DNA of 64,000 bases from a virus. Below the pieces are notes generated by a model that was not told the origin of the DNA, did no database searches, and worked only from the letters and a program-made list of their open reading frames with translations. The stretch lies in IMG/VR virus record IMGVR_UViG_3300033145_000733, positions 2,525 through 66,524 of that record, one strand, 5' to 3'. Both the position numbers and the translations under genes were made by a program. Positions 36,567 through 52,498 of this stretch are shown here, piece after piece (the first letter of the stretch is position 1; each line of letters opens with the position of its first letter).

Positions 36567-36595
36567 TTGACAATACCACATGTATATGATATAAT
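36567..36595 (+). promoter_or_regulatory. sigma70-type promoter
   Basis: TTGACA-17-TATAAT with TG. Confidence 0.75.
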
Positions 36596-36615: not shown

Positions 36616-36776
36616 ATGAGAAAGACTCTGTATGTTATATTGGGTGCAAGTACTCTTTACCTTGTCATGGACATTGTGATGAATGTATCGTGCGGTTTAA
36701 GTGTTATACTACAAAAAGTTTGGGGTTAGATATTACTGAGAAAGAGATGGGGCTTATAAATGAAAACAATTTATAG
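36616..36776 (+). pseudogene. frameshifted small gene carrying Cys module (CHGHCDECIVRFKCYT)
   Basis: ATG at 36616 is one base out of frame with the motif (36663-36710); the motif frame has no ATG upstream of the motif. Confidence 0.45.
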
Positions 36777-37170
36777 TACTGGGGCTTTTGGAGAGCCATA
36801 TAGGATTGAAGTAAGTAATGATTTGCTGAATGAAGTCATCTTTGCTCAAGAACAACTTAATACTATGCGGTGGGAGTGTGAGGTCTATTTGCCCGTACCC
36901 ATCGTTCCATTGAATGTTGATAAACATCTTAATGCTGAGATAGTAGTAAGAAAAAATTCAGTTTATATTTGCATGGAAGGTCCAGATGGAAAGGAACTAA
37001 TGTTAGATGACAAAGACTTACTTGACATACCTGATGTGTACGTTAGTAGAGATTTTGAATTTTCGCTATCAGACCATGTTTTTAGCTTAACGTCACGTGA
37101 CATAGACATGATTGCTACTTGGAAAGCACTTAAACAGAGAAAGTTTGAGGATTCTAATAAAGTATATTAA
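36760..37170 (+). CDS. hypothetical protein
   Basis: 136-aa ORF. Confidence 0.6.
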   Translation: MKTIYSTGAFGEPYRIEVSNDLLNEVIFAQEQLNTMRWECEVYLPVPIVPLNVDKHLNAEIVVRKNSVYICMEGPDGKELMLDDKDLLDIPDVYVSRDFEFSLSDHVFSLTSRDIDMIATWKALKQRKFEDSNKVY

Positions 37171-37609
37171 ATATTTTTGTGTTTGTGCGTAGTTTAAAGT
37201 GGTCTGCCAGGTATGTTTTCATTAGTGATCTAATAGGGGAGATATTATGAAAATAAGATTATACAGTAATCCCAATGGTACAGGATGGTTAGGTTGGGTT
37301 GACAACTGTAAGAATCAAGTAGTAGCGTTTATTCGTCTTGATGGTTCTTTAGTTTTTGAGTGGTAGGTAGTTTTTAACTGGTATAGGAGTTGTAATGTTA
37401 TACATAGTAGGAAAAGTAAATCCTGAGAATTATTTAGAGTGGGAATTTATGGGTATATTCTCAACAGAAGAATCGGCGGTTAAAAATTGCATAACTTGGG
37501 AACACTTTGTAGGTCCAGTAGATTTGGATGTAGCTCTTCCACAAGAACAAATTTTGTGGGAAGGTGCTTATTACCCAATAGCTGATAAGTACTACGAAGA
37601 GAATTAAAT

Positions 37610-37945
37610 GGGGGCGCGTGGTTTCGACAGGGTTACTATAAACACATAAGCAGGTAGTCTTTAGTGAGTAGACTATAAACAGCACCAAAAAATAAGTGCA
37701 AAACTTAAATTATTCGTAGTTCTAAAAGAAGGACTACTCTTCCTCGATGATGCTCCTGTTACGGTTCTTGGGGAAGACTGTTTAGTAACAGAAAAACCTG
37801 GTACACCTCTAACAGTATAAACTAGAGATGCGCTCAACGTTGAAATTGTTGTTTGATAAACGTTGCTAAGAAATAAACTAATATACCTGTAGAAAATGTG
37901 CTAAAGGTTATTCTGGACGGGGAGTTCGACCCTCCCCCGCCTCCA
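37610..37945 (+). ncRNA. ssrA: tmRNA
   Basis: 5' GGGGGCG..GGTTTCGAC; 3' GGACGGGGAGTTCGAC..CGCCTCCA; 7-bp acceptor stem with G3:U70; resume context ATAAGT-GCA and tag ORF 37698-37820. Confidence 0.9.
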
Positions 37946-37970
37946 CATTATTATATAAAAAAATTATAAA

Positions 37971-38021
37971 AAAATGAGTTCAATATAATAAAATGAGTTC
38001 AATATAATAAAATGAGTTCAA
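37971..38021 (+). repeat. 19-bp tandem repeat AAAATGAGTTCAATATAAT (2 full, 1 partial)
   Basis: direct reading. Confidence 0.85.
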
Positions 38022-38314
38022 GACATATAATAGTTAGAGATGGTTTAGGTAATTATCATTATTCATTCTGGTGTGATTCAAATAGTTGTGCTGATTGTAT
38101 GTTAAGATTTCAGTGCTTCACGTCTCGCTCAGGGTCAATAACGGCAATATTTCCAACAGATGTTATAGATGAAAGAGTGAAAGAATTAAGAAACAAGTGT
38201 TGGAGGTTGAGAGATGGAAGTTCAATCACTAGAAGTATCCACCCAGAAAATTTTACCAAGGGGAACTCTTCCAAGAAGGGTTGGGTTGGCACCAGGTTAT
38301 ACACAAAACTGTAG
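38012..38314 (+). CDS. hypothetical protein with Cys module (CADCMLRFQCFT)
   Basis: motif in translation. Confidence 0.7.
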   Translation: MSSRHIIVRDGLGNYHYSFWCDSNSCADCMLRFQCFTSRSGSITAIFPTDVIDERVKELRNKCWRLRDGSSITRSIHPENFTKGNSSKKGWVGTRLYTKL

Positions 38315-38441
38315 CATGGGGTGTGATTCGTGCTACCTTAAATTTTTATGCTTCACTACACGTGGAGAGATTATATTAAGTTACAACTATTTAAAGGAGT
38401 ATCAAAGGGATAAGGCGAAGAGGCAGGGACATTTAAAATAA
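38214..38441 (+). CDS. small protein with Cys module (CDSCYLKFLCFT); true start uncertain
   Basis: motif in translation; overlaps the previous ORF. Confidence 0.6.
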   Translation: MEVQSLEVSTQKILPRGTLPRRVGLAPGYTQNCSMGCDSCYLKFLCFTTRGEIILSYNYLKEYQRDKAKRQGHLK

Positions 38442-38726
38442 AAATACCACTTACTAAAAATACCACATATAAAGCGGATTATTCCGCTAAATTAGTGGGA
38501 GAACAGGTCGGGGGACCAATGAACAAACCATACCATGTTTACAGCAACGCACCCAAGTGTTCTGGTTGTGGAAGACCTATGGTTTATTTATACACTCATG
38601 TAGCTTCTAATAGAACTGTTTGGAAATGTAGAGATTGTGATATTAGAGAAGAAGTAACTAATGGTTTTCCAGAAGATGATGAAGGCGACCCTAATAAATC
38701 GTTCATAAGCATTTTTTCATCTGTTT

Positions 38727-39365
38727 ATGAGTATAGTAGTTTGCCTGGAGATAATTATGAATATAGAAGAACTAGAGAAAATTATTTCAGGTTACAAGAT
38801 AACCAAACCAAAATATCGGGGAGAGGAGGTGGAGAACAAATCTCTACCCTTTATGCTCTCCACGTTTAGAGAATTAATACAAAATGAAATTCCACCTACG
38901 CAAGAAGAATTTATTAATACTTTCAAAGTTAAGTATCCTGATGTAAATTATAAAGGAATTGTATCAAGATTAAAAAGAGCTTATTTATCCTATGTAAGAG
39001 AATATCATCTTGGGTACTTGTTTAAAAAACATTTTAAGAAAGTTATATACGATGAGAAATTAGATATAAACGGTGTTGATTATGTAATCTATTATCGTGG
39101 AATTAAGTTTAATATCCATGCTTATGTTAACACAGAAAATGGTAAGTATTGGAGAGAAGTAAAAAATAAAAGACACAAATTTCGTGGTGAGCATCTAGAT
39201 ATACCTATGAACTTAGATAAAGGGAAACGGCGTGGTAAGTTTATACTTTATACTGATGACAACGTTCGCAAACTAAAAGACGAAATGGGTAAAATTGCCG
39301 ACAAAAAACATGTTTTAAAAGTTTGTGACATTCCTCAAAATAATTTACACTCAATCCTGACATAA
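38727..39365 (+). CDS. PD-(D/E)XK nuclease, TaqI-family-like (likely start ATG at 38757)
   Basis: RLKRAYLSYVREYH...LDINGVDYVI resembles the TaqI-like core; GGAG site before MNIEEL. Confidence 0.55.
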   Translation: MSIVVCLEIIMNIEELEKIISGYKITKPKYRGEEVENKSLPFMLSTFRELIQNEIPPTQEEFINTFKVKYPDVNYKGIVSRLKRAYLSYVREYHLGYLFKKHFKKVIYDEKLDINGVDYVIYYRGIKFNIHAYVNTENGKYWREVKNKRHKFRGEHLDIPMNLDKGKRRGKFILYTDDNVRKLKDEMGKIADKKHVLKVCDIPQNNLHSILT

Positions 39366-39385
39366 TTTTAACCATTGAAAAAAGT

Positions 39386-39446
39386 GATCTTAATAGGATC
39401 GATCTTAGATCTGATCAATAGATCTTAATAGATCTGATCCTTGATC
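39386..39446. repeat. cluster of nine GATC sites
   Basis: GATC at 39386, 39397, 39401, 39408, 39413, 39421, 39431, 39436, 39443. Confidence 0.9.
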
Positions 39447-39956
39447 CGAAACGAAAAATAATTTAGGAGTGGACAGTGGAGGACAAACAGAAAATAATCA
39501 AAGCTTTGAGAAAGCATCGTAGAGAAATTACCAATATTATTGACGGTTTTGTACAATTGGACGAGACGGATGATAGGAAATTTAACAGGGTACTTGCTAA
39601 TGAGATTGTATTTACTTTGTTCGGGTTTATTGATACTTTGGTAAACACAGAAATTGATATTCATAACTTTATGAAGGGGAGAGGATAATGGCTTGTTATT
39701 TGAAGAAACATTTAAAAGAAGAGCACGCAAACATGCGAGACCCTAGATATGAGAGTATTGTATTTACGTGTCCAGTATTTGGTGGAGCGCAAATTTGCAT
39801 GTGGTGTTGTTTGCACGTTCGTGACGTGGCAAACCCACTTAGTAGAAATTATGCTACAGACCATAATGCAAACTATGCTATTAAAGCAACAGAGGTTTCT
39901 GGTAGAGAACTTGATAGTATTTGGGAAACTTGTGCTCGTTGTCATAATGCACAGGC

Positions 39957-39985
39957 TTGACAATTAACAGTTAGTGTGGTATAAT
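39957..39985 (+). promoter_or_regulatory. sigma70-type promoter
   Basis: TTGACA-17-TATAAT; includes the TGA stop of ORF 39688-39960. Confidence 0.7.
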
Positions 39986-40173
39986 GGAAATAGACAAGTT
40001 GAAAAGAGAAGTTATGCAGTTGAGGGACAAAACTGCTGAATTGGTGTCTCCTGGTTTTTCTTATTATGAACAAGAACTTATTAGGAGAGTTTTAAAGGCT
40101 GTGTTACCTCAAATGAGCAGTAATAGTGATATTAGCACAGCTAAGGGTATTTTAAAGAAAACGGAGTGGTTGG

Positions 40174-40779
40174 ATGATGGAACATGAATCATGTCTAGGA
40201 ATTACAATTGATTCGGAGTTTGAGAGAAGAAATCTTAGACTAAGCAGGGTGATATTGTTGTCTGGGGAAATAGATATTGGAGCAGCTCATGAGTTTGTTG
40301 AAGACATTAAAATGCTGTTGTTAGATGACTCTAATGAACCAATAACTATAATTATTTCTTCACCTGGTGGTAATGTTTTTAGTGGTGTTGCCATCATTAG
40401 GGCAATTAGAGAAGCGCAGAGTAGAGGAATAAAGATTATAGGTGATGTTTATGGGCAGGCAATGTCAATGGCATTTTTTATTTTACAATGTTGCGATGAA
40501 AGAAGAATGGGTAGTTTATGTACTTTGATGGCTCATGGTATAACCACAGGTTTTATTGGTGATATGAGAAATGTTGAAGCGGAGCAGAAGTTGCTTACTT
40601 CTTGGCAACGTGAGATAGCTCAACTTATCTCCAATCGTTGCACTTCTTATGATACTGAGTATACTGAGTCTGGTTACTGGTTTGCTATCTTGAAAGATAA
40701 CACTCCTCAATTTTATGATAGTCACGAAGCTAAAGAAATGGGGTTGATTGATATAGTTAATGATGATAATAAAAACTAA
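40174..40779 (+). CDS. clpP: ClpP-like serine protease subunit
   Basis: ISSPGG, GQAMSMA (catalytic Ser), LMAH (His), EAKEMGLID. Confidence 0.82.
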   Translation: MMEHESCLGITIDSEFERRNLRLSRVILLSGEIDIGAAHEFVEDIKMLLLDDSNEPITIIISSPGGNVFSGVAIIRAIREAQSRGIKIIGDVYGQAMSMAFFILQCCDERRMGSLCTLMAHGITTGFIGDMRNVEAEQKLLTSWQREIAQLISNRCTSYDTEYTESGYWFAILKDNTPQFYDSHEAKEMGLIDIVNDDNKN

Positions 40780-41191
40780 AAAAATACACCAAAAAGCAAT
40801 AGTTCCAAAGATAGCCACCGAAGGTTCAGCCTGTTTTGACCTGTACGCCTGTGAGAATTTTGTCTTGGGTAATGGTTATTTTCGCAAAGTTAGAACTGGT
40901 CTTATTTTTGAAATACCGAAAGGTTGGCATGTAAAGTTATACAATAGGAGTGGTATGGCAGCTAGGGGTATTATAATTCCCAACGCACCTGGTATTATAG
41001 ATTCAGATTATAGGGGGGAAATTATTGTGATGCTCTATGGTCTGTTTATGAAGAAGCAAGAAATATTTCAGGTTGGTAATAGGATAGCTCAGGGAGAGCT
41101 AATAAAAGGAGAGTCTGTGGCGTTTGATGTTGTATCTAAATTGTCAGATACGGAACGTGGTTCTGGTGGTTTTAGTTCAACAGGAAAATAA
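40760..41191 (+). CDS. dut: trimeric dUTPase
   Basis: ACFDL, RSGMA, GIIDSDYRGEI, RIAQ, RGSGGFSSTG. Confidence 0.93.
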   Translation: MMIIKTKKIHQKAIVPKIATEGSACFDLYACENFVLGNGYFRKVRTGLIFEIPKGWHVKLYNRSGMAARGIIIPNAPGIIDSDYRGEIIVMLYGLFMKKQEIFQVGNRIAQGELIKGESVAFDVVSKLSDTERGSGGFSSTGK

Positions 41192-41217
41192 TCCACGAGT
41201 TATAAGGTGAGGAGATT

Positions 41218-41688
41218 ATGGTAAAGGATTATGAGGTTTATTTAGCTGGAAGAATAGCTAATCTTAGTTATGATGATGCTGTATCTGAAAGAGACGAGAT
41301 TACTAAAAAGTTAAATAGTGTCGGTATAAAATGTCGGACTCCGTTGAGGGGTAAGCAACATTTAAAGAATGAGTTAAAAATTACAGCAAACGCTTTTAAA
41401 GATGGTTTGTCCATACAAGAAGTTATCCAGAGGGACATAAGTGATGTGAACAAGGTTGATGCTGTATTGATTATGACTGGTGATGACGCTAGTTGGGGGA
41501 CTGCTGGAGAATTCTATTATGCTACCTGGATTTCTAAAACACCAACGTTAGTAATAGCGAAGAATCATATTGGTGGATGGATGGAGCATTATGCAACCAG
41601 AATTGTACCAGACTTTGATAGTGCGGTGAAGGTGTTGCTACACTGGAAGAAATATTGGAATGGTGGTGGTGTGTACGATACGAGGTAA
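41218..41688 (+). CDS. nucleoside 2-deoxyribosyltransferase-like / nucleotide hydrolase
   Basis: VYLAG, RDISDV..VDAV, SWGTAGE. Confidence 0.7.
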   Translation: MVKDYEVYLAGRIANLSYDDAVSERDEITKKLNSVGIKCRTPLRGKQHLKNELKITANAFKDGLSIQEVIQRDISDVNKVDAVLIMTGDDASWGTAGEFYYATWISKTPTLVIAKNHIGGWMEHYATRIVPDFDSAVKVLLHWKKYWNGGGVYDTR

Positions 41689-41694
41689 TAAAAA

Positions 41695-42504
41695 ATGGCA
41701 ACATATAACTTAGTAGAGTTAAGAGAATTAATTAAAGCATTGTCCTTTAATGATAATGGTAAAGTAGTGCTCAACATTGGCAAGGTTGGTGATGATGAGT
41801 ACCAAATAATGTATGTCACAGAAGATGGTGATACAATTGTATCTTGCATGTTGCCAGAGGTTACTGTAACGCAATTGCAAGAGTTACTGTCTAGGGTTAC
41901 TGAGTTTTCTTCTGATACTGGTACTGCTACGGGTGGTACGCAGACAACATTGGTTGACACACTTAAGAATTGGGAAGTGAACATGTGGCAAGGTGCTATT
42001 CTGGAGGTGTACAGTGTAGCTGATAATGTTTACTACCTAAGCACAATAGCAAGCAACACTGCCAATACAATAACTTTTGCTGCTTTACCAGCAGGTAAGT
42101 TAGTTGCTAGTGGTAACCCATATGCTGTTAGACTTACCATAGGTTCAATTGACATCCTTAAATGGGGTGGTACTGCACTTACTGGTAGAGATATTTCATT
42201 AGACATTGCTAAGATTGGTGATGATACTTACACAACACCTGCTCACACAAAAATTACAGCGGCAAATACAACAACTACAGCTTTAGCTGTTAACGCTAAT
42301 AGGATTTATGCTTTACTACAGAACTATAGCGATGCCGATATTAGTATTAAATTTGGGGCTAATGCGGTAGCTGGTGAAGGTTTTGTGATAAGACCTAATG
42401 GTAGTTATGAAATGAGTAAGAAGTTGGGCAATTTGTATGCTGGAGCTATTAACTGCATTAGTGTAGCTGGTGGCAAGACCTTACTTGTAACGGAGGGTGT
42501 ATAA
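41695..42504 (+). CDS. putative virion structural protein
   Basis: Thr/Gly/Ala-rich; GTATGGTQTTLVDT...IASNTANTITF beta-rich pattern. Confidence 0.5.
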   Translation: MATYNLVELRELIKALSFNDNGKVVLNIGKVGDDEYQIMYVTEDGDTIVSCMLPEVTVTQLQELLSRVTEFSSDTGTATGGTQTTLVDTLKNWEVNMWQGAILEVYSVADNVYYLSTIASNTANTITFAALPAGKLVASGNPYAVRLTIGSIDILKWGGTALTGRDISLDIAKIGDDTYTTPAHTKITAANTTTTALAVNANRIYALLQNYSDADISIKFGANAVAGEGFVIRPNGSYEMSKKLGNLYAGAINCISVAGGKTLLVTEGV

Positions 42505-42962
42505 TGTTGAACAATCCATTTGATGGTGCAGATTTACAAGCTTTAGGTGAGGTTATTGAAACCAAATTAAACCAAATCTGGAACTATTCTTTTTCTACTG
42601 TAAAATTAGCGACTCCCATTCCTCCAGTTGAATTGACATCTGATAATGTCGCCTTAGAATGGGGAGTATATAGTTCCAATATAATTGCTGCTGATGAAAT
42701 AGCCGAAGGATTCGTTATTGTAGCGGGGGCTGTTGCAAATCCTGATGATAATGGGAATTATTATATAGAATTCTATTATGGGGCTGAGGATACACCATGT
42801 ACTAGTTTTGGATTCACCAAGACTAATCCATTTCAAGCGTCACTGTGGAGACCATTAAAAACTGAGATAATCCCTGCGAATTCAAGAGTGAGAGCTAGGT
42901 TAAGACATTCTGCTGGTAATGAAGCGACTTGTCTTGTAGGAGTATATTATCAGACAGTCTAA
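42504..42962 (+). CDS. putative structural protein, paralogous to the C-terminus of 43053-44417
   Basis: IPANSRVRARL resembles FNAGTRISAS; shared start context GAGGGTGTATAATGTT. Confidence 0.5.
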   Translation: MLNNPFDGADLQALGEVIETKLNQIWNYSFSTVKLATPIPPVELTSDNVALEWGVYSSNIIAADEIAEGFVIVAGAVANPDDNGNYYIEFYYGAEDTPCTSFGFTKTNPFQASLWRPLKTEIIPANSRVRARLRHSAGNEATCLVGVYYQTV

Positions 42963-42982
42963 AGATATTACAAAGGAGATAC

Positions 42983-43039
42983 TGACATTGAAGCCCCAGG
43001 TGATGGTAAGAGAATTTGGGTTACTGATTTGTTTATAGA
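42983..43039 (+). repeat. 57-bp exact duplicate of 44489-44545
   Basis: TGACATTGAAGCCCCAGG...TTTGTTTATAGA occurs in both places. Confidence 0.9.
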
Positions 43040-43052
43040 GTGAGGGTGTATA

Positions 43053-44417
43053 ATGTTACGTAATACATATGATGATACAGGCTTACAAGGCAAGGTAGAT
43101 AACGTAAGTGATGACCTTGGAGATAAGGGAGTAGGTAATGATACTATTACTCGTGTTCAAGCGATTATAGATGACCTTGCCAATGGCACAGATGGTTTGG
43201 GAGCTTTAAAAGCTTTAATTGATGTGTTACCAACAGTTATGCGTGGAACAGATAATGCTGCACTCGTGTCTGATGCAGGTAATTTCACAAGCGGTAGGGC
43301 AGTAACAGCTACATTACGAGTATCACCTAATGGGGATAACAGTGATGGTGAAACATGGTCAACCGCATATAATGAAATTCAGACAGCGTTAAATGCTGCT
43401 AGTACAGATGTTAATGCGTTAACTTTAATATTAATAGCCCCCAAAACTGGTAATGTTCATTATGACATCAACACCGCAGGTGATCCAACTTGGTCAGCTA
43501 ATGTAATTCTTAAGGGGTCACACAGAACGTGGGTTAAGATTATGAACGATAATGTTGGGGCAACTTCAATAATGAAACTAACTGGGTATGCCAGTCTTAA
43601 TGACCTTAACTTTAATCTTGGAGAGTCTAACAATGGTGTTATTTTTACCAAGGGAGCATTTAGAGCAGGGCACTTGCAGTTTGTCGGTGAAAATTTGACT
43701 GGGGCAATAACTAGAACTGCTTTGCACATGGATGGTGCTTCTCCAATTAAGCATGGTAAGTTATCAGATATTCACTTTCTTGGTGCTGGTGGAACTCATA
43801 TGATTGCTATGCTATTTGATAATTGTGTACGTTCAGAAGTTTCACATATAAGGGCGCATCAGTGTTTGACAGGTGCTCAGTTTGTAAATTCAAGCGATAG
43901 TAACTATCTTATTGATATAGATCTTGGTGATTGTGCTGTTGGTCTTGATATTGATTCTGGTGATGTTCAGCACTTTACAAATATAACTTTTCATGATTGT
44001 GCTTTAAATGTAGATGATGTTACAAGGAATCATGTTTGGATGGGTATACATGGTCAGTTTCCTGTTACCGTTGAACCAGTAACAATACCAGATTATACTG
44101 GTGTAGTAGTATCAGCAGGGGAGGATGCTTATGGTTCTGATACAGAGTTACGTGCTGCTGGTACAGCCAAACCATTCAAGATTTTAGGGTATAGGTTTGA
44201 ACCATCAGAAGAGAAGAAGTTTATGATACGATTTTCAGCTAACGCTGGAGCACCATACTTTGATATGGCTTTAATTGAAGTTAAGAAGAATAAAGCTCAA
44301 GGAGCTTCAGAGGGAACAGATTTCATATTTAATGCTGGTACTAGAATATCCGCAAGTGCTGGTTGTGAAGTCGCAGGCAAGTCTGTTCAAATCTGGTTGG
44401 AGATACAGGAGATATAA
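43053..44417 (+). CDS. beta-helix (pectin-lyase-like) tailspike/decoration-like protein
   Basis: VSPNGDNSDG.TW.TAY.EIQ.AL start of a beta-helix; repetitive beta-strand pattern. Confidence 0.55.
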   Translation: MLRNTYDDTGLQGKVDNVSDDLGDKGVGNDTITRVQAIIDDLANGTDGLGALKALIDVLPTVMRGTDNAALVSDAGNFTSGRAVTATLRVSPNGDNSDGETWSTAYNEIQTALNAASTDVNALTLILIAPKTGNVHYDINTAGDPTWSANVILKGSHRTWVKIMNDNVGATSIMKLTGYASLNDLNFNLGESNNGVIFTKGAFRAGHLQFVGENLTGAITRTALHMDGASPIKHGKLSDIHFLGAGGTHMIAMLFDNCVRSEVSHIRAHQCLTGAQFVNSSDSNYLIDIDLGDCAVGLDIDSGDVQHFTNITFHDCALNVDDVTRNHVWMGIHGQFPVTVEPVTIPDYTGVVVSAGEDAYGSDTELRAAGTAKPFKILGYRFEPSEEKKFMIRFSANAGAPYFDMALIEVKKNKAQGASEGTDFIFNAGTRISASAGCEVAGKSVQIWLEIQEI

Positions 44418-44435
44418 TGATACGAGGTAAAAATA

Positions 44436-44741
44436 ATGAATAGATTTGGATGGGGTTCAACCCCCCTAATACACATATTAACTGATATTGACATTGAAGC
44501 CCCAGGTGATGGTAAGAGAATTTGGGTTACTGATTTGTTTATAGAATGTGGAGCAAACACAACATTACAGTTAAAAGAAGTTGGTGGTGATTTTATAACA
44601 CCATCAGCTAGTAAAATTGACCACACGTTTGCCGCACCGATAAAGTGTGCAACTAATACTGGCATTAGCGTAGAAAAAACTGGTATTGGGTTGGCTGTCA
44701 TTATTATTGGTTACTATATTGAAGGAGCAACCCACAACTAA
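44436..44741 (+). CDS. small putative structural protein
   Basis: APGDGKRIWVTD...IIGY pattern. Confidence 0.5.
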   Translation: MNRFGWGSTPLIHILTDIDIEAPGDGKRIWVTDLFIECGANTTLQLKEVGGDFITPSASKIDHTFAAPIKCATNTGISVEKTGIGLAVIIIGYYIEGATHN

Positions 44742-45484
44742 TGAGAGTAGCAGTTGATTATGATGCTTTAGTAGGTTACTATACTTCTGGTAAAAGTTTA
44801 TTGGACGTTGCTGGTATCATTGGTTGTTGCTCAAATACCGTTACTAATAGGTTGCGTAAGTGTGGTATTGGTATTAGAACATTATCTGAGGCTCAAATTA
44901 TTCGTAGACATAGAAGTGTTTCTATAAATAGTAGTTTGTTGTGTGTGTTGGATGGGTTATTGTTGGGTGACGGCAATTTATCGTCTCCTAGAGGTAATCA
45001 AGCTGTTTACCATCAAGATAGTAGCGAGAAAGAATTTATAGATTATGTTTCTAGTGTTTTAAGTAATAGCGGTTATTTGGCTACTAAATATGATTATGAT
45101 AGGTTTGACAAACGTACAAAGAAGATGTATCATTCTTATTCGTTAAACTCCATTTTTACGGTGGAGTTACAGAAACAATATGATAGATGGTATAAAAATG
45201 GTATTAAAATTGTCCCGCTAGATCTATTAATAACACCTGTAGTATTGATGCTGTGGTATCTTAGTGATGGTTACAAAGATAGAAGATGTCATAATATAGT
45301 TATTGCTACAGATTCATTTAAGAAGGAAGAGGTTGAAAGTCTTGTATATAGGTTTTCATTGATTGGTATTCCTTCACATAGACAAGAAAATAATAGAATA
45401 AGAGTAAATGCTGATGGGTACGATACGTTTATGTCTTATATTGGAGGATGCCCAATTGGATGTTATAGACACAAATTTTCCTAA
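44741..45484 (+). CDS. free-standing LAGLIDADG homing endonuclease with N-terminal HTH
   Basis: LDGLLLGDGNL and LMLWYLSDG motifs. Confidence 0.82.
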   Translation: MRVAVDYDALVGYYTSGKSLLDVAGIIGCCSNTVTNRLRKCGIGIRTLSEAQIIRRHRSVSINSSLLCVLDGLLLGDGNLSSPRGNQAVYHQDSSEKEFIDYVSSVLSNSGYLATKYDYDRFDKRTKKMYHSYSLNSIFTVELQKQYDRWYKNGIKIVPLDLLITPVVLMLWYLSDGYKDRRCHNIVIATDSFKKEEVESLVYRFSLIGIPSHRQENNRIRVNADGYDTFMSYIGGCPIGCYRHKFS

Positions 45485-47525
45485 ACGAGTCATTAAGCGT
45501 GATGGCAGGATTACTAAGTATAATTCTGATAAGATAGTTCTTGCGGTTACTAAGGCTATGGAGTCTATTGGTAAGATTGATGATGAAGTTGCGTTAAGCA
45601 TTGCTACTGTTGTTACTGATAACTTGAATGGTAATGGTGAGTTATCAGTAGAAGAAATTCAAGATAAGGTTGAAGATGCTCTCATCCAGCTAGGCAATGT
45701 TAAACTAGCTAAGACTTATATATTATACAGGGCGAAAAGAGCAGAGGTTCGTGGTTTTAGAGAGGCTATCGGTATCGAAGAAGATGCTCTCAAATTGGGT
45801 GTCAATGCTTTAGCTTTGTTGGATAGAAGATACTTAAAAAGTTTTGACGGAAAAAAAGAAACACCATCACAAATGTTTCATAGGGTGGCTAATAACGTAG
45901 CGTCTGTGGAGAAGTCATTTGGTGGTAGTTCTGATTACTGGGGCAAGATATTTTATAATTTAATGGCTAATCAGATATTTCTACCAAACACACCATGTTT
46001 AGCTAATGCTGGTAACGTCAATTTAAATTATTTGTTTGCTTGTTATGCGTTTGAAGTTGGTGATTCTATGGAAGACATATTACAAACAGCTAAGGATTGT
46101 GGTATGGTTCAAAAGACTGGTGGTGGTGTTGGTCTTAATTTGTCCAAGCTAAGACCTTGTGGTGATAGGGTTAACACTACTGAGGGTGTAGCTAGTGGAC
46201 CTATTGATTTTATGAGAATTTATGATACAATAAGTGATGTTATTAAGCAAGGTGGTATCAGGCGTGGTGGTAATTTGGGATTATTGTTGGTTAATCATCC
46301 AGATATAATTGATTTTATTAAGTGTAAAAATGATGAAACGAGATTAAATAATTTTAATATTTCAGTTGCTATCACTGATGAGTTTATGCGTTGTGTGAAT
46401 ACTGGTAGCGATTTTTCTTTGGTTAACCCCACTGATGGAAAAGTTGTTCAAAGTGTTAATTCTAGGCATCTATTTCGCTTTATTGCTGAATCTGCTTGGC
46501 GAAATGGTGAGCCTGGTTTTGTTTTTTGGGACAGAATAGAAGAGGATAATCCTACACCAAAACAAGGACACTTGATAAAGAACTTATGTGGTGAGCAGGA
46601 TTTATTACCTTATGAGGCTTGTGTTCTGGGGTCAATAAATTTAGTAAAGTTTGTTGAAGATGGGCAGATTGTATATAACTCTTTAAGAAAGGTTGTTCAT
46701 CATTCTGTTAGGTTTCTTGATGATGTTATTACTGCGTCTAGTTATCCACTAGAGGCAATACGTAATAAAGTACTGTCAAACAGGAAAATAGGGTTGGGTG
46801 TCATGGGGTTTGCTAATTTGTTGTTTATGCTTGGTATTCCATATGATTCTGATGAGGCTGAGGTGGTAGCTGAAGAAGTGATGGAGTTCATAAACGTGGA
46901 AGCGAGAAAAGCTTCAGCTCACTTGGCTGAAGATCGTGGTAGTTTTTTAAGTATTGATGAGTCTGTTATAAACCAACCACAAAGAAATGCCTCCATTACC
47001 ACCATAGCTCCCACAGGTAGTATAAGTATCATAGCAGAAACATCTAGTGGTATTGAACCTATTTTTGCAGTGGTTTATCAAAAGACTAATATCTTGGAGG
47101 ATACTACATTTTTTGAGGTGAATCCTGTTTTTGAGAGGGTTGCTAAACAAGAGGGTTGGTACTCACCGTCAATAATTAACAAGATTATCAGAAATGGTGG
47201 TAAGGTAACAGGACTTTCAGAAGTACCAGAAAAATGGCAGAAAATTTTTAGGACCGCATTGGAGGTTTCACCTGAGTGGCATGTTAAAATGCAATCTGCT
47301 TTTCAACGTCATGTTAATAACTCAATATCAAAAACTGTAAATCTATCGTATGATGCCACAGTTGAGGACGTTGAACGAGTTATTAAGCTTGCGTATGACA
47401 CGAAGCTCAAAGGACTTACGGTGTTTCGTAATCAAAGTAGGGCAAAACAGGTTTTAGAAACATTGTGTGTAGAGTGTGATGATGGTGTTTGTTCTATTCC
47501 TGATCCAGCGGTTAAGTTGGTGTAA
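45456..47525 (+). CDS. nrdJ: class II (adenosylcobalamin-dependent) ribonucleotide reductase with ATP cone
   Basis: VIKRDG ATP cone, PNTPCLANAG, GGGVG, NLCGEQ, RKIGLGVMG, TIAPTGSIS, C-terminal Cys pair; GGAGG then TTG at 45456. Confidence 0.88.
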   Translation: MDVIDTNFPKRVIKRDGRITKYNSDKIVLAVTKAMESIGKIDDEVALSIATVVTDNLNGNGELSVEEIQDKVEDALIQLGNVKLAKTYILYRAKRAEVRGFREAIGIEEDALKLGVNALALLDRRYLKSFDGKKETPSQMFHRVANNVASVEKSFGGSSDYWGKIFYNLMANQIFLPNTPCLANAGNVNLNYLFACYAFEVGDSMEDILQTAKDCGMVQKTGGGVGLNLSKLRPCGDRVNTTEGVASGPIDFMRIYDTISDVIKQGGIRRGGNLGLLLVNHPDIIDFIKCKNDETRLNNFNISVAITDEFMRCVNTGSDFSLVNPTDGKVVQSVNSRHLFRFIAESAWRNGEPGFVFWDRIEEDNPTPKQGHLIKNLCGEQDLLPYEACVLGSINLVKFVEDGQIVYNSLRKVVHHSVRFLDDVITASSYPLEAIRNKVLSNRKIGLGVMGFANLLFMLGIPYDSDEAEVVAEEVMEFINVEARKASAHLAEDRGSFLSIDESVINQPQRNASITTIAPTGSISIIAETSSGIEPIFAVVYQKTNILEDTTFFEVNPVFERVAKQEGWYSPSIINKIIRNGGKVTGLSEVPEKWQKIFRTALEVSPEWHVKMQSAFQRHVNNSISKTVNLSYDATVEDVERVIKLAYDTKLKGLTVFRNQSRAKQVLETLCVECDDGVCSIPDPAVKLV

Positions 47526-47726
47526 ATATGACTTTTAGGTGTGCTATATGTGAAACTAGAGTTTATCATCCCAATCGTTATTTTTGTTTTAGTTGCTACA
47601 GCAAATTTGTAGATGCTATTCGTGCTAAAGAAGAATGGACAAAGTTTATTGTTAGTGAAGAGTCAAAGAGACGAAGAAGGGAAAAAAGAGATTCTGTGTT
47701 AGTTTACTTGGGTAACAAGTGGGATA

Positions 47727-48329
47727 TTGACACTGGGGGAAATCTTATTCGCAAGGAAGGCTTTCAGTATGGGCAGGAAAAGAAAAGGACAAGAAGTTCA
47801 AGAGAAAATTGAGAAGTATCTAGAGGAGTATGAACTTGATGAGTTGAACCAAGCTAATGATATGGCAGCTCTAACTCATATGTGCCAACTGGAAGTTAAT
47901 GTTGAGCAAATTCAAGAGGCTCTCAGCAAGATAAAAGATCCTCTTGAGGATTCTAAGAAAATTAGAGAGCTTCAGAGTGCGTTACGTGATGCTAATCAGA
48001 ATTGGGTGACACTTCAGCAAGAACTTGGTATTAGCAGGAAAAAGAGACAAAGTGATAGTGATGAGTCTCCATTACAATATGTTGAAAGACTTCAAGAACT
48101 TGGTAAGAAGTTTATAAGTAGCAGATTAAAGAAATTGGTGTGCTCTAAGTGTGGACAGGTTTTAGGTAAGTATATGTTTTATGTCACGGATAAGGGTGAG
48201 AAGGGGTCATTGGAAAGTGATATTAAACCAATTGAACCTTATAAATTTACAGTTCGTCACGAGTGTTGGAAGTGTGGTGAGATAACTGAGGTTTCAAACG
48301 AAGAATTTGAGCTGGCGGTGCAGGAATGA
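47727..48329 (+). CDS. hypothetical protein, possible terminase small subunit (likely start 47769)
   Basis: position before terminase large; helical with QQELGISRKKR; C-terminal Zn ribbon. Confidence 0.45.
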   Translation: MTLGEILFARKAFSMGRKRKGQEVQEKIEKYLEEYELDELNQANDMAALTHMCQLEVNVEQIQEALSKIKDPLEDSKKIRELQSALRDANQNWVTLQQELGISRKKRQSDSDESPLQYVERLQELGKKFISSRLKKLVCSKCGQVLGKYMFYVTDKGEKGSLESDIKPIEPYKFTVRHECWKCGEITEVSNEEFELAVQE

Positions 48330-49921
48330 AGGAAAAGGTAACACTTAGCGAAGGTGACCTTGCTGTATTGGAAATAGTTGAAGACCCAGTTATGTTCAGC
48401 GAGTTTATTAGGAGCGTTGAGGATGATGTTGATAATGGCGGTTATGGTTGGCATTATGATAACTATCAAAGAAAAATGTTAATTGATAGTTCAAATTATA
48501 TCAGTATAGCTACTGGTAGAACCACTGGTAAGACGGCTAGTATGGAGACAAAGATTATTCACGATGCGGTCTCAAATAAATATAAGAGAGCAAGTGCTAA
48601 TGAGATATTATTAGTGGTTCAGAATAAGTCACAGTTAGAACCCGTATTTTTGCGTCTTATTAACTTTTTTAGGAGGCATCCTCTGTTGACCTACTTTATT
48701 GATAGGTTAAGTGTCAACATGTCAAGTCACGAAATAAGATTGTTAAATGGTTGTTTAATAAGGTGTAGAATTGTTGGTTCTACAGCAGACAGCAATGTTA
48801 TCGGGTTACATGTCCCATGTATATATGTTGATGAGGGTCAGGTTTTTAATTATACAGCATGGAATAGTCTTATGCAGTGCCTAACGACATGGGACGATGG
48901 TTTTAATTTGTGGGTCAGTGGTGTACCAAATGGTTTACGTGAGAAAAATGTTCTTTATGAGTGTGACCAAGTAGACCAAAAATTTTCACGTCATAATATC
49001 TCAAGGATAAGTAGTATTAGATACACAAAGCAACAGCATGAAACAGACCTTAAACAGTATGGTGGTGAGAATGGTGATGATTATATTCATTTAGTTCTTG
49101 GAGAACACGGTTCACCAGCTTTTTCTGTGTTTGATAGAAAGTTAATGAGAATAGAGGATTATCCTGTTGCGGTGTTTGTGTTAAATAATATATCTTTAGA
49201 CCAGCACAATGGTCAGTTTAATGAGCTTCTAAGATTACCAGACCTTCCTTCTGATATTAAGAGTAAGCATGACCTAATAGTGGCTGGAATAGATGCTGGT
49301 TTCTCTAATGACCCAACTGTTATCACTATTTTATGGAGAGAAAAAGTAACTTTAGTGTGGAGAATATTTGCTCGCATAGAGTTAAGGAGAATAAAGTACC
49401 CTATACAGGCTAAGATAATTGATTGGTTAGATACTATTTATAGGTTTAATATGATAACCGTTGATGCTGGACATTCTGGTTTGGCGTTGTGTCAAATATT
49501 ACAGGATGATAGCGGGGAATTTAAAGCCAAGAATTTTGAAAAGAGATTGATTCCTGTTGACTTTCAAGCTAGTGTTGTTGTTGGCTATGATGAAGATGAT
49601 AAAGAGGTAAAGGATAGGGTTAGAAAGTTTACAATTCAAACATTACAAACGTGGAGTCAGAATGACCAAATAATTGCGTTTACTACCCAGGATGATGATA
49701 TGATTACTGAGCTAGAGAGGGTTGGTTTTACCAGAGACATGCTTGGTCAGCCAAAGTTCTTTGTCTATTCACCGCAAGGTGGTCAGAGGGGTGAAGACCA
49801 TTTACTAGCTTCTCTTTTGACGTGGGTATATGGGTATTATTACAGATACTATTCCCCAGAAAAACCAAATGCTAAAGGTAAATATAGTGATTTAGCTCGT
49901 GGTGGATGGAATGTTCGGTAG
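48326..49921 (+). CDS. terL: terminase large subunit
   Basis: GRTTGKT Walker A, IYVDEGQ Walker B, GIDAGFSNDPT RNase H-like nuclease, C-terminal DH. Confidence 0.85.
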   Translation: MKEKVTLSEGDLAVLEIVEDPVMFSEFIRSVEDDVDNGGYGWHYDNYQRKMLIDSSNYISIATGRTTGKTASMETKIIHDAVSNKYKRASANEILLVVQNKSQLEPVFLRLINFFRRHPLLTYFIDRLSVNMSSHEIRLLNGCLIRCRIVGSTADSNVIGLHVPCIYVDEGQVFNYTAWNSLMQCLTTWDDGFNLWVSGVPNGLREKNVLYECDQVDQKFSRHNISRISSIRYTKQQHETDLKQYGGENGDDYIHLVLGEHGSPAFSVFDRKLMRIEDYPVAVFVLNNISLDQHNGQFNELLRLPDLPSDIKSKHDLIVAGIDAGFSNDPTVITILWREKVTLVWRIFARIELRRIKYPIQAKIIDWLDTIYRFNMITVDAGHSGLALCQILQDDSGEFKAKNFEKRLIPVDFQASVVVGYDEDDKEVKDRVRKFTIQTLQTWSQNDQIIAFTTQDDDMITELERVGFTRDMLGQPKFFVYSPQGGQRGEDHLLASLLTWVYGYYYRYYSPEKPNAKGKYSDLARGGWNVR

Positions 49922-49933
49922 TGGAGATTTATA

Positions 49934-51793: not shown

Positions 51794-52498
51794 GTGATAA
51801 TTTATCCTGATAATTGGAGTACAATCGGTGCAATTGTTGGTGTATCTCAAGTAGAGGATACCATTGAGCAGGTAACCAAGGACGTACCGTGTTGCGCCTT
51901 GTCGCTTTCTGGTGGTGTTGATTCTGCTTTATTGCTTTATTATATGAGCAAGCATAACACACAAGTTAGAGCTTATACTATTGGTTATTCAGAAAATCAT
52001 CCTGATGTTATTTATGCCAGGAAGATATGTAAGCAATTTGATAATGTTAAGCATGTTGTACATATACCGAAATCAAAGGTGGAAACAGTGGGATGTGATT
52101 TGGATGGTGACGAAGCTGTGAGAGAATTTTACAAGTTCGTTGGTAGTTTTGAGGAGTCTATCGTAACTGGTGATGGTATTGATGAATTTATGTGTGGTTA
52201 TTATAAGCACCAACAGGACAAAACTGATGAAACGTACTATAAGTGCATTAGAGAGCTTTTTTCCATTCAACTAGAACCGTTAAACAGAAACTCTGGTGGT
52301 GTTTTAGTATATTTACCGTATTTGGATGATAGGTTATTGCGGTTATTAGTAATGATACCTACTAGTGAAAAGGTTGACATTGATAATAGGAAGAAGATAA
52401 TAATTAGTATTGCTAAGGATAAATTACCCAGTTCTATTGTGTATAGAAGGAAGTACGGTTTTTGTAATGCTCTTAATGATATACGGGAAAGTAAATAA
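51794..52498 (+). CDS. asparagine-synthase C-terminal-like PP-loop ATPase
   Basis: SLSGGVDS, TGDGIDEFMCGY, LPYLD, R.K.GF; no glutaminase domain. Confidence 0.8.
   Translation: MIIYPDNWSTIGAIVGVSQVEDTIEQVTKDVPCCALSLSGGVDSALLLYYMSKHNTQVRAYTIGYSENHPDVIYARKICKQFDNVKHVVHIPKSKVETVGCDLDGDEAVREFYKFVGSFEESIVTGDGIDEFMCGYYKHQQDKTDETYYKCIRELFSIQLEPLNRNSGGVLVYLPYLDDRLLRLLVMIPTSEKVDIDNRKKIIISIAKDKLPSSIVYRRKYGFCNALNDIRESK

What the first reader, a model, noticed from the sequence alone, without database searches (positions are those of the whole stretch)
37610..37945. Phage tmRNA with an unusually long tag lacking the usual Ala-Ala degron
The tRNA-like domain is intact (G3:U70 alanine identity; CCA not fully encoded). 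The predicted tag frame 37698-37820 encodes 40 aa, AKLKLFVVLKEGLLFLDDAPVTVLGEDCLVTEKPGTPLTV. Typical bacterial tags are roughly 10-25 aa and end in LAA-like residues read by ClpX. This tmRNA might rescue ribosomes without marking products for host proteolysis, or redirect them to the phage ClpP encoded about 2.2 kb downstream.
Basis: partly seen in the sequence, partly recalled or inferred. Interest (0 to 1): 0.7.

Follow-up and report, generated by a model that had tools for sequence, protein, structure and literature searches.

The report
Phage tmRNA with conserved 40-residue tag
An uncultured large phage carries its own ribosome-rescue RNA (tmRNA) whose built-in tag message is about four times the usual length, runs through RNA knots that normally lie behind the message, and is kept in every relative found, so it is probably a real, customised protein tag.

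Summary
Rfam places a full-length tmRNA at 37610-37948 (106.6 bits, cut-off 47).

I found 18 distinct relatives on phage and metagenome DNA. All keep the same resume context (TAA-N-T/C|G) behind a covarying pseudoknot 1. All keep one open frame of 35-40 codons, against 2-7 stops in each other frame.

The frame reads through helix 5 and pseudoknot 2, both supported by pairing counts. It stops in a loop of pseudoknot 3, not in the helix-5 loop.

The nearest cellular tmRNAs are all Chloroflexota, mostly Dehalococcoidia (33 of 33 pattern hits). They have 6-10-residue tags such as AEEAVPVAA. Eight of 18 phage tags end PVSA, PVAV or PVAA, so a host-type degradation signal at the end is likely.

The link to the phage ClpP-fold gene is only conserved proximity.

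No such tag was found in print. The published range is 8-35 residues. This scan has noted long-tag phage tmRNAs on other DNA before, including two notes on this same family.

The parts
36567..36595 (+). Sigma-70-type promoter-like site (TTGACA-17-TATAAT, 12 of 12, TG extended), the nearest one upstream of the tmRNA. It probably drives ORF 36760-37170, ORF 37395-37607 and the tmRNA as one transcript.
   Evidence: Consensus match only; co-transcription is inferred.
37610..37945 (+). tmRNA gene from G1 to discriminator A. CCA is not encoded.
   Evidence: Rfam RF00023 at 106.6 bits; sequence; 17-sequence alignment A4.
37610..37616 (+). Acceptor stem 5' strand GGGGGCG. It pairs with 37938-37944 and includes G3:U.
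   Evidence: 100% of cells paired, G:U in 17 of 17, two pairs with compensatory changes.
37655..37685 (+). Pseudoknot 1. Stem 1 is TAGTCT/AGACTA (37655-37660 with 37670-37675). Stem 2 is GTG/CAC (37664-37666 with 37683-37685).
   Evidence: Stem 1 counted. Stem 2 covaries across relatives (GGTG/CACC, GTGG/CCAC, GTGGG/CCCAC, GGGT/ACCC, GGTT/AACC); I read this by eye from alignments A2 and A4 and did not count it formally.
37693..37700 (+). Resume context TAAGT followed by resume codon GCA (37698-37700).
   Evidence: TAA-N-T/C|G is present in 18 of 18 members at this place. It aligns with the resume site that ARAGORN calls in Chloroflexota tmRNAs.
37698..37820 (+). Tag reading frame: 40 codons plus stop TAA (37818-37820).
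   Evidence: The frame is open in 18 of 18 members, and indels inside it are 3 nt.
37716..37737 (+). Helix 5 hairpin GTAGTTCT/AGGACTAC, lying inside the frame. It encodes VVLKEGLL, the invariant core of the tag.
   Evidence: Rfam aligns it to model helix 5. 99.3% of cells are paired, almost only with wobble changes.
37738..37791 (+). Pseudoknot 2, lying inside the frame. Stem 1 is TCTTCCTCGA/TTGGGGAAGA (37738-37747 with 37768-37777). Stem 2 is CTGTTAC/GTAACAG (37756-37762 with 37785-37791).
   Evidence: compensatory changes at 6 of 10 pairs (stem 1) and 4 of 6 pairs (stem 2).
37807..37827 (+). Hairpin CTCTA/TAGAG (pseudoknot 3 region), with the stop codon in its loop.
   Evidence: Local folds of 10 members put the stop in a hairpin loop in most. 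Stem sequences differ between members (read by eye; not counted formally).
37835..37865 (+). Hairpin CAACGTT/AACGTTG (pseudoknot 4 region).
   Evidence: 5-7 of 7 pairs in 7 of 10 members. The alignment is poor in the others.
37920..37936 (+). T arm: GGGAG, loop TTCGACC, CTCCC.
   Evidence: 100% of cells paired.
39984..40187 (+). Conserved 67-residue ORF whose end overlaps the start of the ClpP-fold gene. It belongs to no known family and lies behind promoter-like site 39957-39985.
   Evidence: tblastn finds it directly upstream of the ClpP-fold gene in 7 of 7 relatives.
40174..40779 (+). ClpP-fold serine protease gene (201 aa). Its role is uncertain: head-maturation protease or free-standing ClpP.
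   Evidence: Pfam PF00574 at 74.5 bits. Best PHROG matches are head maturation proteases. Below all NCBIfam cut-offs. Aligns full length with solved ClpP chains.

Best explanation
This is a working, one-piece phage tmRNA descended from a Chloroflexota (probably Dehalococcoidia) ssrA gene.

Proposed steps:
- It is probably transcribed with the two ORFs upstream of it and cut out by host RNase P and 3' nucleases (inferred).
- It receives CCA from a nucleotidyltransferase. Complete relatives encode one.
- It is charged with alanine through its G3:U pair and enters stalled ribosomes with the host's SmpB, since the phages encode none.
- Translation resumes at the canonical place, GCA 37698, 11 nt behind pseudoknot 1.
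- The stop that ordinary tmRNAs carry in the helix-5 loop is missing. The ribosome therefore reads on through helix 5 and pseudoknot 2 and stops at a conserved TAA in a loop of pseudoknot 3.

The result is a 35-40-residue tag (plus the charged Ala) with three parts:
- An almost invariant hydrophobic core, (L/V)FVVLxEGLLF, weakly predicted as a beta-hairpin.
- A variable acidic, probably disordered linker.
- An end of small aliphatic residues that in many members copies the host-lineage PVAA end.

Most likely the RNA frees ribosomes during infection and still hands the tagged fragments to host AAA+ proteases through the C-terminal end. The conserved core would add a second determinant, such as a hydrophobic degron or a docking strand.

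Shown: the RNA family, the frame, its conservation, and the RNA structures under it. Inferred: expression, translation, and the fate of tagged proteins.

The confidence of 0.6 is for the whole statement. That it is a functional tmRNA whose long frame is translated I put at about 0.85. That the tag is a composite degron read by host proteases I put at about 0.5.
For: RNA identity:
- Rfam full-length match.
- 94.8% of 714 pair cells form standard pairs, against 46-53% when partners are slid. 16 pairs show changes on both sides. 0 of 500 shuffles reach the observed values.

Resume site:
- TAA-N-T/C|G in 18 of 18 members.
- It aligns column for column with the ARAGORN-called resume site of Chloroflexota tmRNAs, which share ...TAACTGGC....

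The frame is kept:
- 18 distinct sequences have tags of 35 (1), 38 (2), 39 (10) and 40 (5) residues.
- 0 in-frame stops, against 2-7 stops in each other sense frame.
- The codon-complement antisense frame has a stop in 9 of 18, so an antisense gene does not explain the open frame.
- The two indels inside alignment columns 93-200 are both 3 nt, while 1- and 2-nt gaps are common outside the frame.
- The stop is TAA in 17 and TAG in 1.

Peptide constraint on top of RNA constraint:
- Helix 5, both strands coding, changes almost only by wobble transitions that are also synonymous.
- Pseudoknot 2 and pseudoknot 1 covary freely.

Tag structure: AlphaFold2 on the 17-tag alignment predicts strands at residues 6-9 and 12-15 with block pLDDT 74-75, and the rest at 47-50.

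Host-like end: PVSA x5, PVAV x2 and PVAA x1 among 18 phage tags, against PVAA in 21 of 29 Chloroflexota tags.

Dependence on host factors: no SmpB in 4 of 4 phage records, 3 of them complete. A PolyA_pol/CCA-adding family gene is present in 3 of 3 complete relatives.
Against: - There are no expression data; no sequencing run was listed.
- Pooled pN/pS over 10 tags is only 0.77. RNA pairing constrains synonymous sites too, so peptide selection on the core cannot be fully separated from RNA selection. One member (G008) has VVLNKEVHF.
- The AlphaFold2 model is of low confidence: mean pLDDT 61.5, pTM 0.27.
- The window's own tag ends PLTV, not PVxA. In an E. coli screen, Ala is favoured at the last two positions, and Leu and Val are about 40% depleted at the last position (PMC10862746, section 15 read). 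Many of these ends may therefore be weak ClpX signals.
- ClpX was found over the cut-off in only 2 of 4 candidate-host genomes, whose completeness is unknown.
- The host assignment rests on tmRNA likeness alone. The phage tmRNAs have 36-45% G+C against 46-65% in the Chloroflexota ones.
- A search of 401 genomes of that class with window 38001-58000 found only conserved-gene homology and no spacer-like match.
Confidence: 0.6

Rival explanations
1. The long tag is translated but is not a host degradation signal. It either protects rescued chains from host proteases or serves a phage purpose. For example, it could dock to a phage factor such as the conserved ClpP-fold protease operon downstream, or act as a functional C-terminal module added to chosen proteins.
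For: - The core is invariant or nearly so (V7, V8, L9, F15 invariant; F6, G12, L13, L14 at 90% or more). A plain C-terminal degron would not need that.
- Most members, including the window, do not end in Ala-Ala.
- The tmRNA and the ClpP-fold gene keep a spacing of 2.2-2.6 kb in the window and in G001, G006 and G007.
- The block nuclease-like gene, 90-aa ORF, 67-aa ORF, ClpP, dUTPase is conserved in the relatives whose contigs reach that far.
- Val at the last position is disfavoured in the E. coli screen (PMC10862746, section 15).
Against: - Eight of 18 ends copy the host-lineage PVAA type, and one is AEPVAA with a double stop.
- The phages carry no ClpX.
- The ClpP-fold protein is below all ClpP cut-offs. 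At the column where the solved ClpP chain has the last D of KDTDRDFY, it has Q. That this D is the catalytic Asp is recalled, not tested.
- It is the only candidate head protease found.
- The core motif occurs nowhere else in the six-frame translation of the window.
- No binding test was made.
Confidence: 0.2
2. Translation resumes not at 37698 but at the in-frame codon about 31 codons downstream (ACA 37788 here; GCA, GCT or GCG in most relatives). That would give a canonical-looking tag of about 10 residues such as AEPVEALATV or AEPVAA. The upstream part of the frame would be untranslated.
For: - The last 6-10 residues look like stand-alone Chloroflexota tags: AEPVMVAA, GEPVFA, ADEPVALAA.
- ARAGORN called EPAKTPVAV as the tag in one member.
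- In the window the bases before ACA read TAGTA, which resembles a resume context.
Against: - That codon lies in the 3' strand of pseudoknot 2 stem 2, which is base-paired and covarying.
- The bases before it are not conserved: TTCTCA, TTCGTA, TTCAGTG.
- The canonical context behind pseudoknot 1 is kept in 18 of 18 members and aligns with the host resume site.
- If only the last 10 codons were read, nothing would keep the 30 codons before them free of stops and of frame-breaking indels in 18 of 18 sequences.
Confidence: 0.07
3. The RNA matters mainly as a competitor or ribosome releaser, titrating SmpB or freeing ribosomes. The long frame would be a tolerated read-through after loss of the helix-5 stop, with no function of its own.
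For: - A phage tRNA-like-domain-only tmRNA (DS6A) is reported to inhibit host tmRNA (PMC4131195 and PMC11915505, passages read).
- Rescue, not tagging, is what cells need (PMC8012679, passage read).
- pN/pS is 0.77.
Against: - All modules of a full tmRNA are kept.
- The frame is open and ends at the same structural place in 18 of 18 diverged members, at a mean column identity of 71%.
- Neutral read-through would have collected stops as the other frames did.
- The core residues are invariant.
Confidence: 0.08

Closest known systems
Chromosomal one-piece tmRNA (SsrA, Rfam RF00023) of Chloroflexota/Dehalococcoidia
   Same: - Same length class: 347-359 nt against 306-355 nt in the phage family.
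- Near-identical tRNA-like domain.
- Same ...TAACT|GGC resume context at position about 89.
- Helix 5 and pseudoknots in the same order.
- Tag ends of the PVAA type are echoed in 8 of 18 phage tags.
   Different: - Host tags are 6-10 residues with the stop in the helix-5 loop, and CCA is encoded.
- The phage frame has no stop there, runs 35-40 codons through pseudoknot 2 into pseudoknot 3, and the gene lacks CCA.
- Phage-host identity in a mixed alignment is 48%, against 66% within the phage group.
Full-length tmRNAs of cultured phages (mycobacteriophage Bxz1 group, Bacillus phage G; two-piece forms in pelagiphage-like myophages such as Melnitz)
   Same: Phage-borne complete ssrA genes. About 2.3% of 18,146 phage genomes have one (PMC9004378 passages; PMC4131195 passages). 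The proposed roles are the same: keeping the hijacked translation machinery running, or tagging proteins.
   Different: - No DNA likeness: blastn against 50,697 GenBank phage records found nothing.
- I found no statement in those papers of a frame running through the pseudoknots or of tags above 35 residues.
Long ssrA tags of Mollicutes (Mesoplasma/Mycoplasma), read by Lon
   Same: Tags much longer than 10 residues whose recognition is spread over the tag and goes to a protease other than ClpXP. The Lon-ssrA pair of Mesoplasma florum appears in the search listing (PMC10695633, PMC9097571 abstracts). The length of about 27 residues is recalled.
   Different: Those are cellular tags within the published 8-35 range (PMC8012679), with no sequence likeness. 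As far as I recall, their stop lies at helix 5. Here the frame overlies two pseudoknots.
tRNA-like-domain-only tmRNA of mycobacteriophage DS6A
   Same: A phage derivative of ssrA that departs from the standard tag design (PMC4131195, PMC11915505 passages).
   Different: It is the opposite departure. DS6A has no tag frame at all; this family has an enlarged one with all domains kept.

Membership tests
tmRNA (SsrA, Rfam RF00023) | Match to the covariance model above the gathering score | tested here: met
   106.6 bits against 47 for the window. Nine relatives score 103-120 bits.
tmRNA (SsrA, Rfam RF00023) | tRNA-like domain: 7-bp acceptor stem with G3:U70, a T arm, and no anticodon arm | tested here: met
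   Acceptor and T-arm cells are 100% paired. G:U is present in 17 of 17.
tmRNA (SsrA, Rfam RF00023) | Pseudoknot 1 followed by an A-rich single strand and a resume codon with U at -5 and A at -4 | tested here: met
   TAA-N-T/C|G in 18 of 18. Pseudoknot 1 stem 2 covaries; I read this by eye and did not count it formally. That -5/-4 are the decisive bases in E. coli is taken from PMC1168896 (passage naming U85 and A86).
tmRNA (SsrA, Rfam RF00023) | Tag frame ends with stop codon(s) in the helix-5 loop | tested here: not met
   PMC1168896 (passage): one to three stops lie within the helix-5 loop. Here the loop has no in-frame stop. The window has C-TAA-AAG out of frame, and most relatives have CTCGAAGAAGG. 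The stop lies about 27 codons further on, in a pseudoknot 3 loop.
tmRNA (SsrA, Rfam RF00023) | Tag of 8-35 residues with a non-polar end | tested here: inconclusive
   The length is 35-40 encoded residues, at or above the published range (PMC8012679 passage). The ends are small or aliphatic in 18 of 18, but Ala-Ala in only 1.
tmRNA (SsrA, Rfam RF00023) | Works with SmpB, alanyl-tRNA synthetase and EF-Tu | not testable with these tools
   No SmpB gene (PF01668) in 4 of 4 phage records. The control rang in 10 of 14 genomes. Use of the host's SmpB is inferred.
tmRNA (SsrA, Rfam RF00023) | 3' CCA end | tested here: not met
   It is not encoded in any of 17 members. A CCA-adding-family gene (PF01743) is present in 3 of 3 complete relatives and absent from the part of this record that is held.
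ClpP (ATP-dependent Clp protease proteolytic subunit), for the gene at 40174-40779 | Match above the curated family cut-offs | tested here: not met
   Pfam CLP_protease is met (74.5 against 20.2). All NCBIfam ClpP models are far below cut-off (60.8 against 249; 55.1 against 308.6). The best hit is the ClpP-related head maturation protease model, also below cut-off (69 against 120).
ClpP (ATP-dependent Clp protease proteolytic subunit), for the gene at 40174-40779 | Ser-His-Asp triad and a partner unfoldase | tested here: inconclusive
   GQAMSM aligns with GQAASM, and LMAHG with IMIHQ, of chain 2zl0_A. KDNTPQFY aligns with KDTDRDFY, so Q stands where the last D is. Which D is catalytic is recalled. 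No ClpX in 4 of 4 phage records.

The most novel reading that the evidence does not exclude
The invariant FVVLxEGLLF hairpin is a docking strand for a phage-encoded factor. Candidates are the conserved 67-residue protein and the ClpP-fold protease operon 2.2 kb downstream. On this reading the phage has rebuilt trans-translation into its own sorting system. Every chain released from a stalled ribosome in the infected cell would get a phage-specific handle plus a host-type end. The phage could then recycle host fragments, or deliberately add a functional 40-residue module to products of its own non-stop messages. The ribosome would have to melt two pseudoknots of the tmRNA ring to write the handle.
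Probability: 0.12. Interest if true: 0.85.

Novelty: new variant of a known kind. Interest (0 to 1): 0.6.

Why it matters
- It stretches the known design of tmRNA. The message is four times the commonest length (10 residues, PMC11915505). It is at or above the published maximum (35, PMC8012679). It is written over helix 5 and two pseudoknots, so the same bases serve as RNA structure and as codons.
- It gives a natural test of whether a ribosome can translate through the pseudoknot ring.
- It suggests that phages tailor the fate of rescued proteins, not only the rescue itself.
- ARAGORN, the tool used in the phage tmRNA surveys I read (PMC7162821, PMC9004378), reports 0 genes on the window. It finds only 2 of 18 trimmed family members, both with a wrong tag. 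It finds 29 of 33 on the Chloroflexota loci. Such genes are therefore probably under-counted.
- The tmRNA points to Chloroflexota/Dehalococcoidia as host lineage for an uncultured clade of phages of about 135-150 kb.

Tried and rejected
- **blastn against GenBank phages.** Window 37500-38100 in distant mode found no match.
- **First DNA pattern for relatives in IMG/VR.** It found nothing. Relatives came instead through the ClpP-fold protein and later patterns.
- **ARAGORN's low-threshold tag VAKK at 37860-37874.** Rejected. It lies in the pseudoknot 4 hairpin, the program itself says 'Tag not identified', and the site is not conserved.
- **Second TAANT context 13 nt downstream.** It gives a 2-residue frame, YS or YL. 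Rejected.
- **Antisense gene as the cause of the open frame.** The in-register reverse frame has stops in 9 of 18; the other reverse frames have 1-7. Rejected.
- **Pfam on 10 tags at E up to 10.** 0 families.
- **ESM Atlas with the tag.** No usable hit.
- **Core motif elsewhere in the window's six frames.** Only the tag itself.
- **Sequencing runs for 37300-38300.** None was listed, and no RNA holder was listed.
- **Spacer or prophage evidence for the host.** Window 38001-58000 against 401 genomes of the class of G013 matched in 51 genomes. All matches were to the ribonucleotide reductase and sugar-enzyme genes, at 63-87% identity. This gives no independent host evidence. Only this one third of the window was searched.
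- **Peptidase_S77 search.** Uninformative, because the control rang nowhere.
- **PMC8403727.** Searched for tag-length statements; none found.
- **Literature for long-tag phage tmRNAs or Dehalococcoidia phage tmRNAs.** Searches returned no paper describing them. Supplementary tables were closed: the phage tmRNA list of PMC9004378 and the database tables of PMC11915505. They might list long tags.
Full report
**What is there.** Rfam's tmRNA model matches window 37610-37948 (+) over its whole length, at 106.6 bits against a gathering score of 47. The window lies in a 66.5-kb IMG/VR virus record that CheckV rates 36% complete. The acceptor stem GGGGGCG/CGCCTCC holds the G3:U pair. After discriminator A37945 the DNA reads CAT, so CCA is not encoded. 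ARAGORN at default settings reports nothing in the window. At a lowered threshold it finds the two tRNA-like halves but prints 'Tag not identified'.

**Where translation resumes.** The bases before GCA 37698 are AAAAAATAAGT, 11 nt after pseudoknot 1. This is the standard arrangement. PMC1168896 (passages) names U85 and A86, which I count as positions -5 and -4, before the E. coli resume codon. The same TAA-N-T/C|G context stands at the same place in all 18 family members. In a mixed alignment it falls on the resume site that ARAGORN calls in Chloroflexota tmRNAs, which read ...TAACT|GGC.... Resume codons in the family are GCA 5, GAC 5, GGC 5, and GAG, GCT and GTC once each. Ala, Gly, Asp and Glu resume codons are reported in PMC1168896.

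**Relatives.** The ClpP-fold protein 2.2 kb downstream led to 12 viral loci.
- RF00023 scored over its cut-off in 5 of those 12 records, and in 3 of the 4 that are at least 90% complete. The three are G001 (148 kb), G006 (134 kb) and G007 (139 kb), the last two with terminal repeats.
- G012 (42 kb, ClpP only 26% identical) and six fragments had none.
- Two DNA patterns found five more viral contigs. Four hold a full tmRNA; in one it is cut by the contig end.
- The tag-peptide alignment found one more viral locus and 12 metagenome loci, of which 5 duplicate earlier ones.
- In all there are 18 distinct sequences, 17 of them complete.
- GenBank phages hold nothing similar at blastn level.

**The frame is kept.**
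- Tags are 35 (1), 38 (2), 39 (10) and 40 (5) residues long.
- The tag frame has 0 internal stops in 18 of 18, while each of the other two sense frames has 2-7 over the same span.
- The reverse frame in codon register is broken in 9 of 18.
- Within alignment columns 93-200 the only two indels are 3 nt long. Outside the frame, 1- and 2-nt gaps are frequent.
- Mean column identity is 71%, so there has been ample change.
- Single-sequence shuffles stay open in 2-9% of trials.
- Pooled pN/pS for 10 tags is 0.77, and differences per codon position are 0.37, 0.27 and 0.43. This is a weak coding signal, as expected where synonymous sites are also base-paired.

**RNA structure under the codons.**
- On the 17-sequence alignment, 94.8% of 714 pair cells are standard pairs, against 46-53% with slid partners.
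- 16 of 42 pairs change on both sides, and no shuffle of 500 reaches the observed values.
- Helix 5 (37716-37737), which Rfam aligns to model helix 5, is 99.3% paired. It varies almost only by wobble transitions, which are also synonymous (GTT/GTC, GGA/GGG, CTA/TTA).
- Pseudoknot 2 shows compensatory changes at 6 of 10 pairs in stem 1 and 4 of 6 in stem 2. There the residues change with the pairs.
- The stop lies in a hairpin loop of the pseudoknot 3 region in most of the 10 local folds. The covariation of that hairpin and of pseudoknot 1 stem 2 I read by eye; I did not count it.
- In ordinary tmRNAs the stops lie in the helix-5 loop (PMC1168896). Here that loop has no in-frame stop.

**Origin.** A pattern built from the family's 3' part matched 33 stretches among 185,579 species genomes. 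All 33 are Chloroflexota: 25 titled Dehalococcoidia or Dehalococcoidales, 1 SAR202, 3 Chloroflexota and 4 'Chloroflexia'.
- ARAGORN finds tmRNAs in 29 of the 33, with tags of 8-10 residues: ANEAVPVAA 11, AEEAVPVAA 9, GEPELALAA 2, GEREYALAA 2, and five others once each.
- Two more appear at a lower threshold: ADEPVALAA and GEPVFA.
- Those tmRNAs are collinear with the phage ones and encode CCA.
- The phage tag core was not confirmed in any species genome: 18 pattern matches, 0 confirmed.
- So the family most likely descends from a Chloroflexota ssrA that lost the helix-5 stop.
- That the phages infect this lineage is a lead, not a result. G+C differs, and a search of 401 genomes of the class gave only conserved-gene matches.

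**Anatomy of the tag and likely working.**
- The alignment of 17 tags has V7, V8, L9 and F15 invariant, and F6, G12, L13 and L14 nearly so.
- AlphaFold2 gives a low-confidence model (pLDDT 61.5). It has two short strands at residues 6-9 and 12-15 (blocks 75 and 74) and a disordered remainder.
- The ends are PVSA 5, LATV 3, LVTV 2, PVAV 2, and PLTV, PVAA, LSTI, LAVV, LVTA and SKVA once each.
- PV at -4/-3 is the mark of 21 of 29 Chloroflexota tags. This argues that the end is still read by a host factor.
- In E. coli, Ala at the last two positions is strongly favoured and Val at the end is disfavoured (PMC10862746, section 15), so many of these ends may be weaker signals.
- The phages have no SmpB and no ClpX, so host factors are needed.
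- Three of three complete relatives encode a CCA-adding-family enzyme and large tRNA arrays: 24 tRNA genes in four loci.

**The ClpP idea.**
- The gene at 40174-40779 has the ClpP fold but is below all NCBIfam cut-offs. Its best model is the ClpP-related head maturation protease.
- It is the only ClpP-fold gene in each record. No S78 prohead protease was found.
- It sits behind a consensus promoter together with a conserved 67-residue ORF and a dUTPase, not among head genes.
- Its role stays open. Nothing but proximity ties it to the tmRNA.

**Known or new.** Phage tmRNAs are known (PMC4131195, PMC9004378 and PMC7162821, passages). Published tag lengths are 8-35 residues (PMC8012679), and the commonest is 10 (PMC11915505). 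Five literature searches found no description of a phage tmRNA with such a frame; supplements were closed. Earlier notes of this scan report long-tag phage tmRNAs in other genomes, at 37, 46 and 51 codons. Two first-reader notes concern members of this same family. These notes are unchecked, but they suggest the phenomenon is general.

**Caveats.**
- Expression, alanylation, SmpB use, translation of the frame and the fate of tagged proteins are all inferred.
- Statements marked as recalled were not checked in a paper here: the Mollicutes tag length and which ClpP Asp is catalytic.

Noticed in passing
window 37965-38021: Three exact-to-near-exact tandem copies of the 19-nt unit TATAATAAAATGAGTTCAA lie directly behind the tmRNA and before ORF 38012-38314. 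Each copy carries a TATAAT. They may be stacked promoters or a binding array.
   Followed up: partly
window 41695-45484: ORFs 42504-42962, 43053-44417 and the LAGLIDADG homing endonuclease 44741-45484 have no counterpart in any of the 7 relatives compared, and ORF 41695-42504 matches only over 45-49 residues. In the relatives the 156-aa gene is followed almost directly by the ribonucleotide reductase. This looks like an insertion of about 3 kb with a homing endonuclease just before nrdA.
   Followed up: partly
window 39984-40187 and 40174-40779: A conserved 67-residue ORF of no known family overlaps the start of the ClpP-fold gene. It is found directly upstream of that gene in 7 of 7 relatives. 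It is a possible partner of the protease.
   Followed up: partly
window 40174-40779: The ClpP-fold protein keeps the Ser (GQAMSM) and His (LMAHG) motifs. It aligns KDNTPQFY to KDTDRDFY of a solved ClpP, so the acidic residues of that stretch are mostly gone.
   Followed up: partly
L016, L018 (G001); L025 (G006); L026 (G007): Complete relatives carry large tRNA arrays: 24 tRNA genes in the four loci scanned. They also carry a gene of about 460 aa from the PolyA_pol/CCA-adding family. The clade invests heavily in its own translation apparatus.
   Followed up: partly
L083:732-1035: This is a divergent family member. It has a much shorter stretch between TTCGACA and the resume codon (51 nt against 71-79) and a T loop GTTCAAT. 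Pseudoknot 1 seems reduced, yet the 39-residue frame is kept.
   Followed up: no
window 37395-37607: The 70-codon ORF that ends 2 nt before the tmRNA has no tblastn match in the 7 relatives. It may not be a gene, or it may be specific to this phage.
   Followed up: partly
L040-L072: The pattern CTGTAGAA-N(18-40)-TGGACRGGRAGTTCGAC occurs among 185,579 species genomes only in Chloroflexota (33 of 33). It may serve as a marker for tmRNAs of that group and of their phages.
   Followed up: partly
A paper in my search listing (PMC12548414, abstract start only) reports that a bL12-binding compound specifically inhibits trans-translation. A functional link with the phage tmRNA is conceivable but was not examined.
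   Followed up: no
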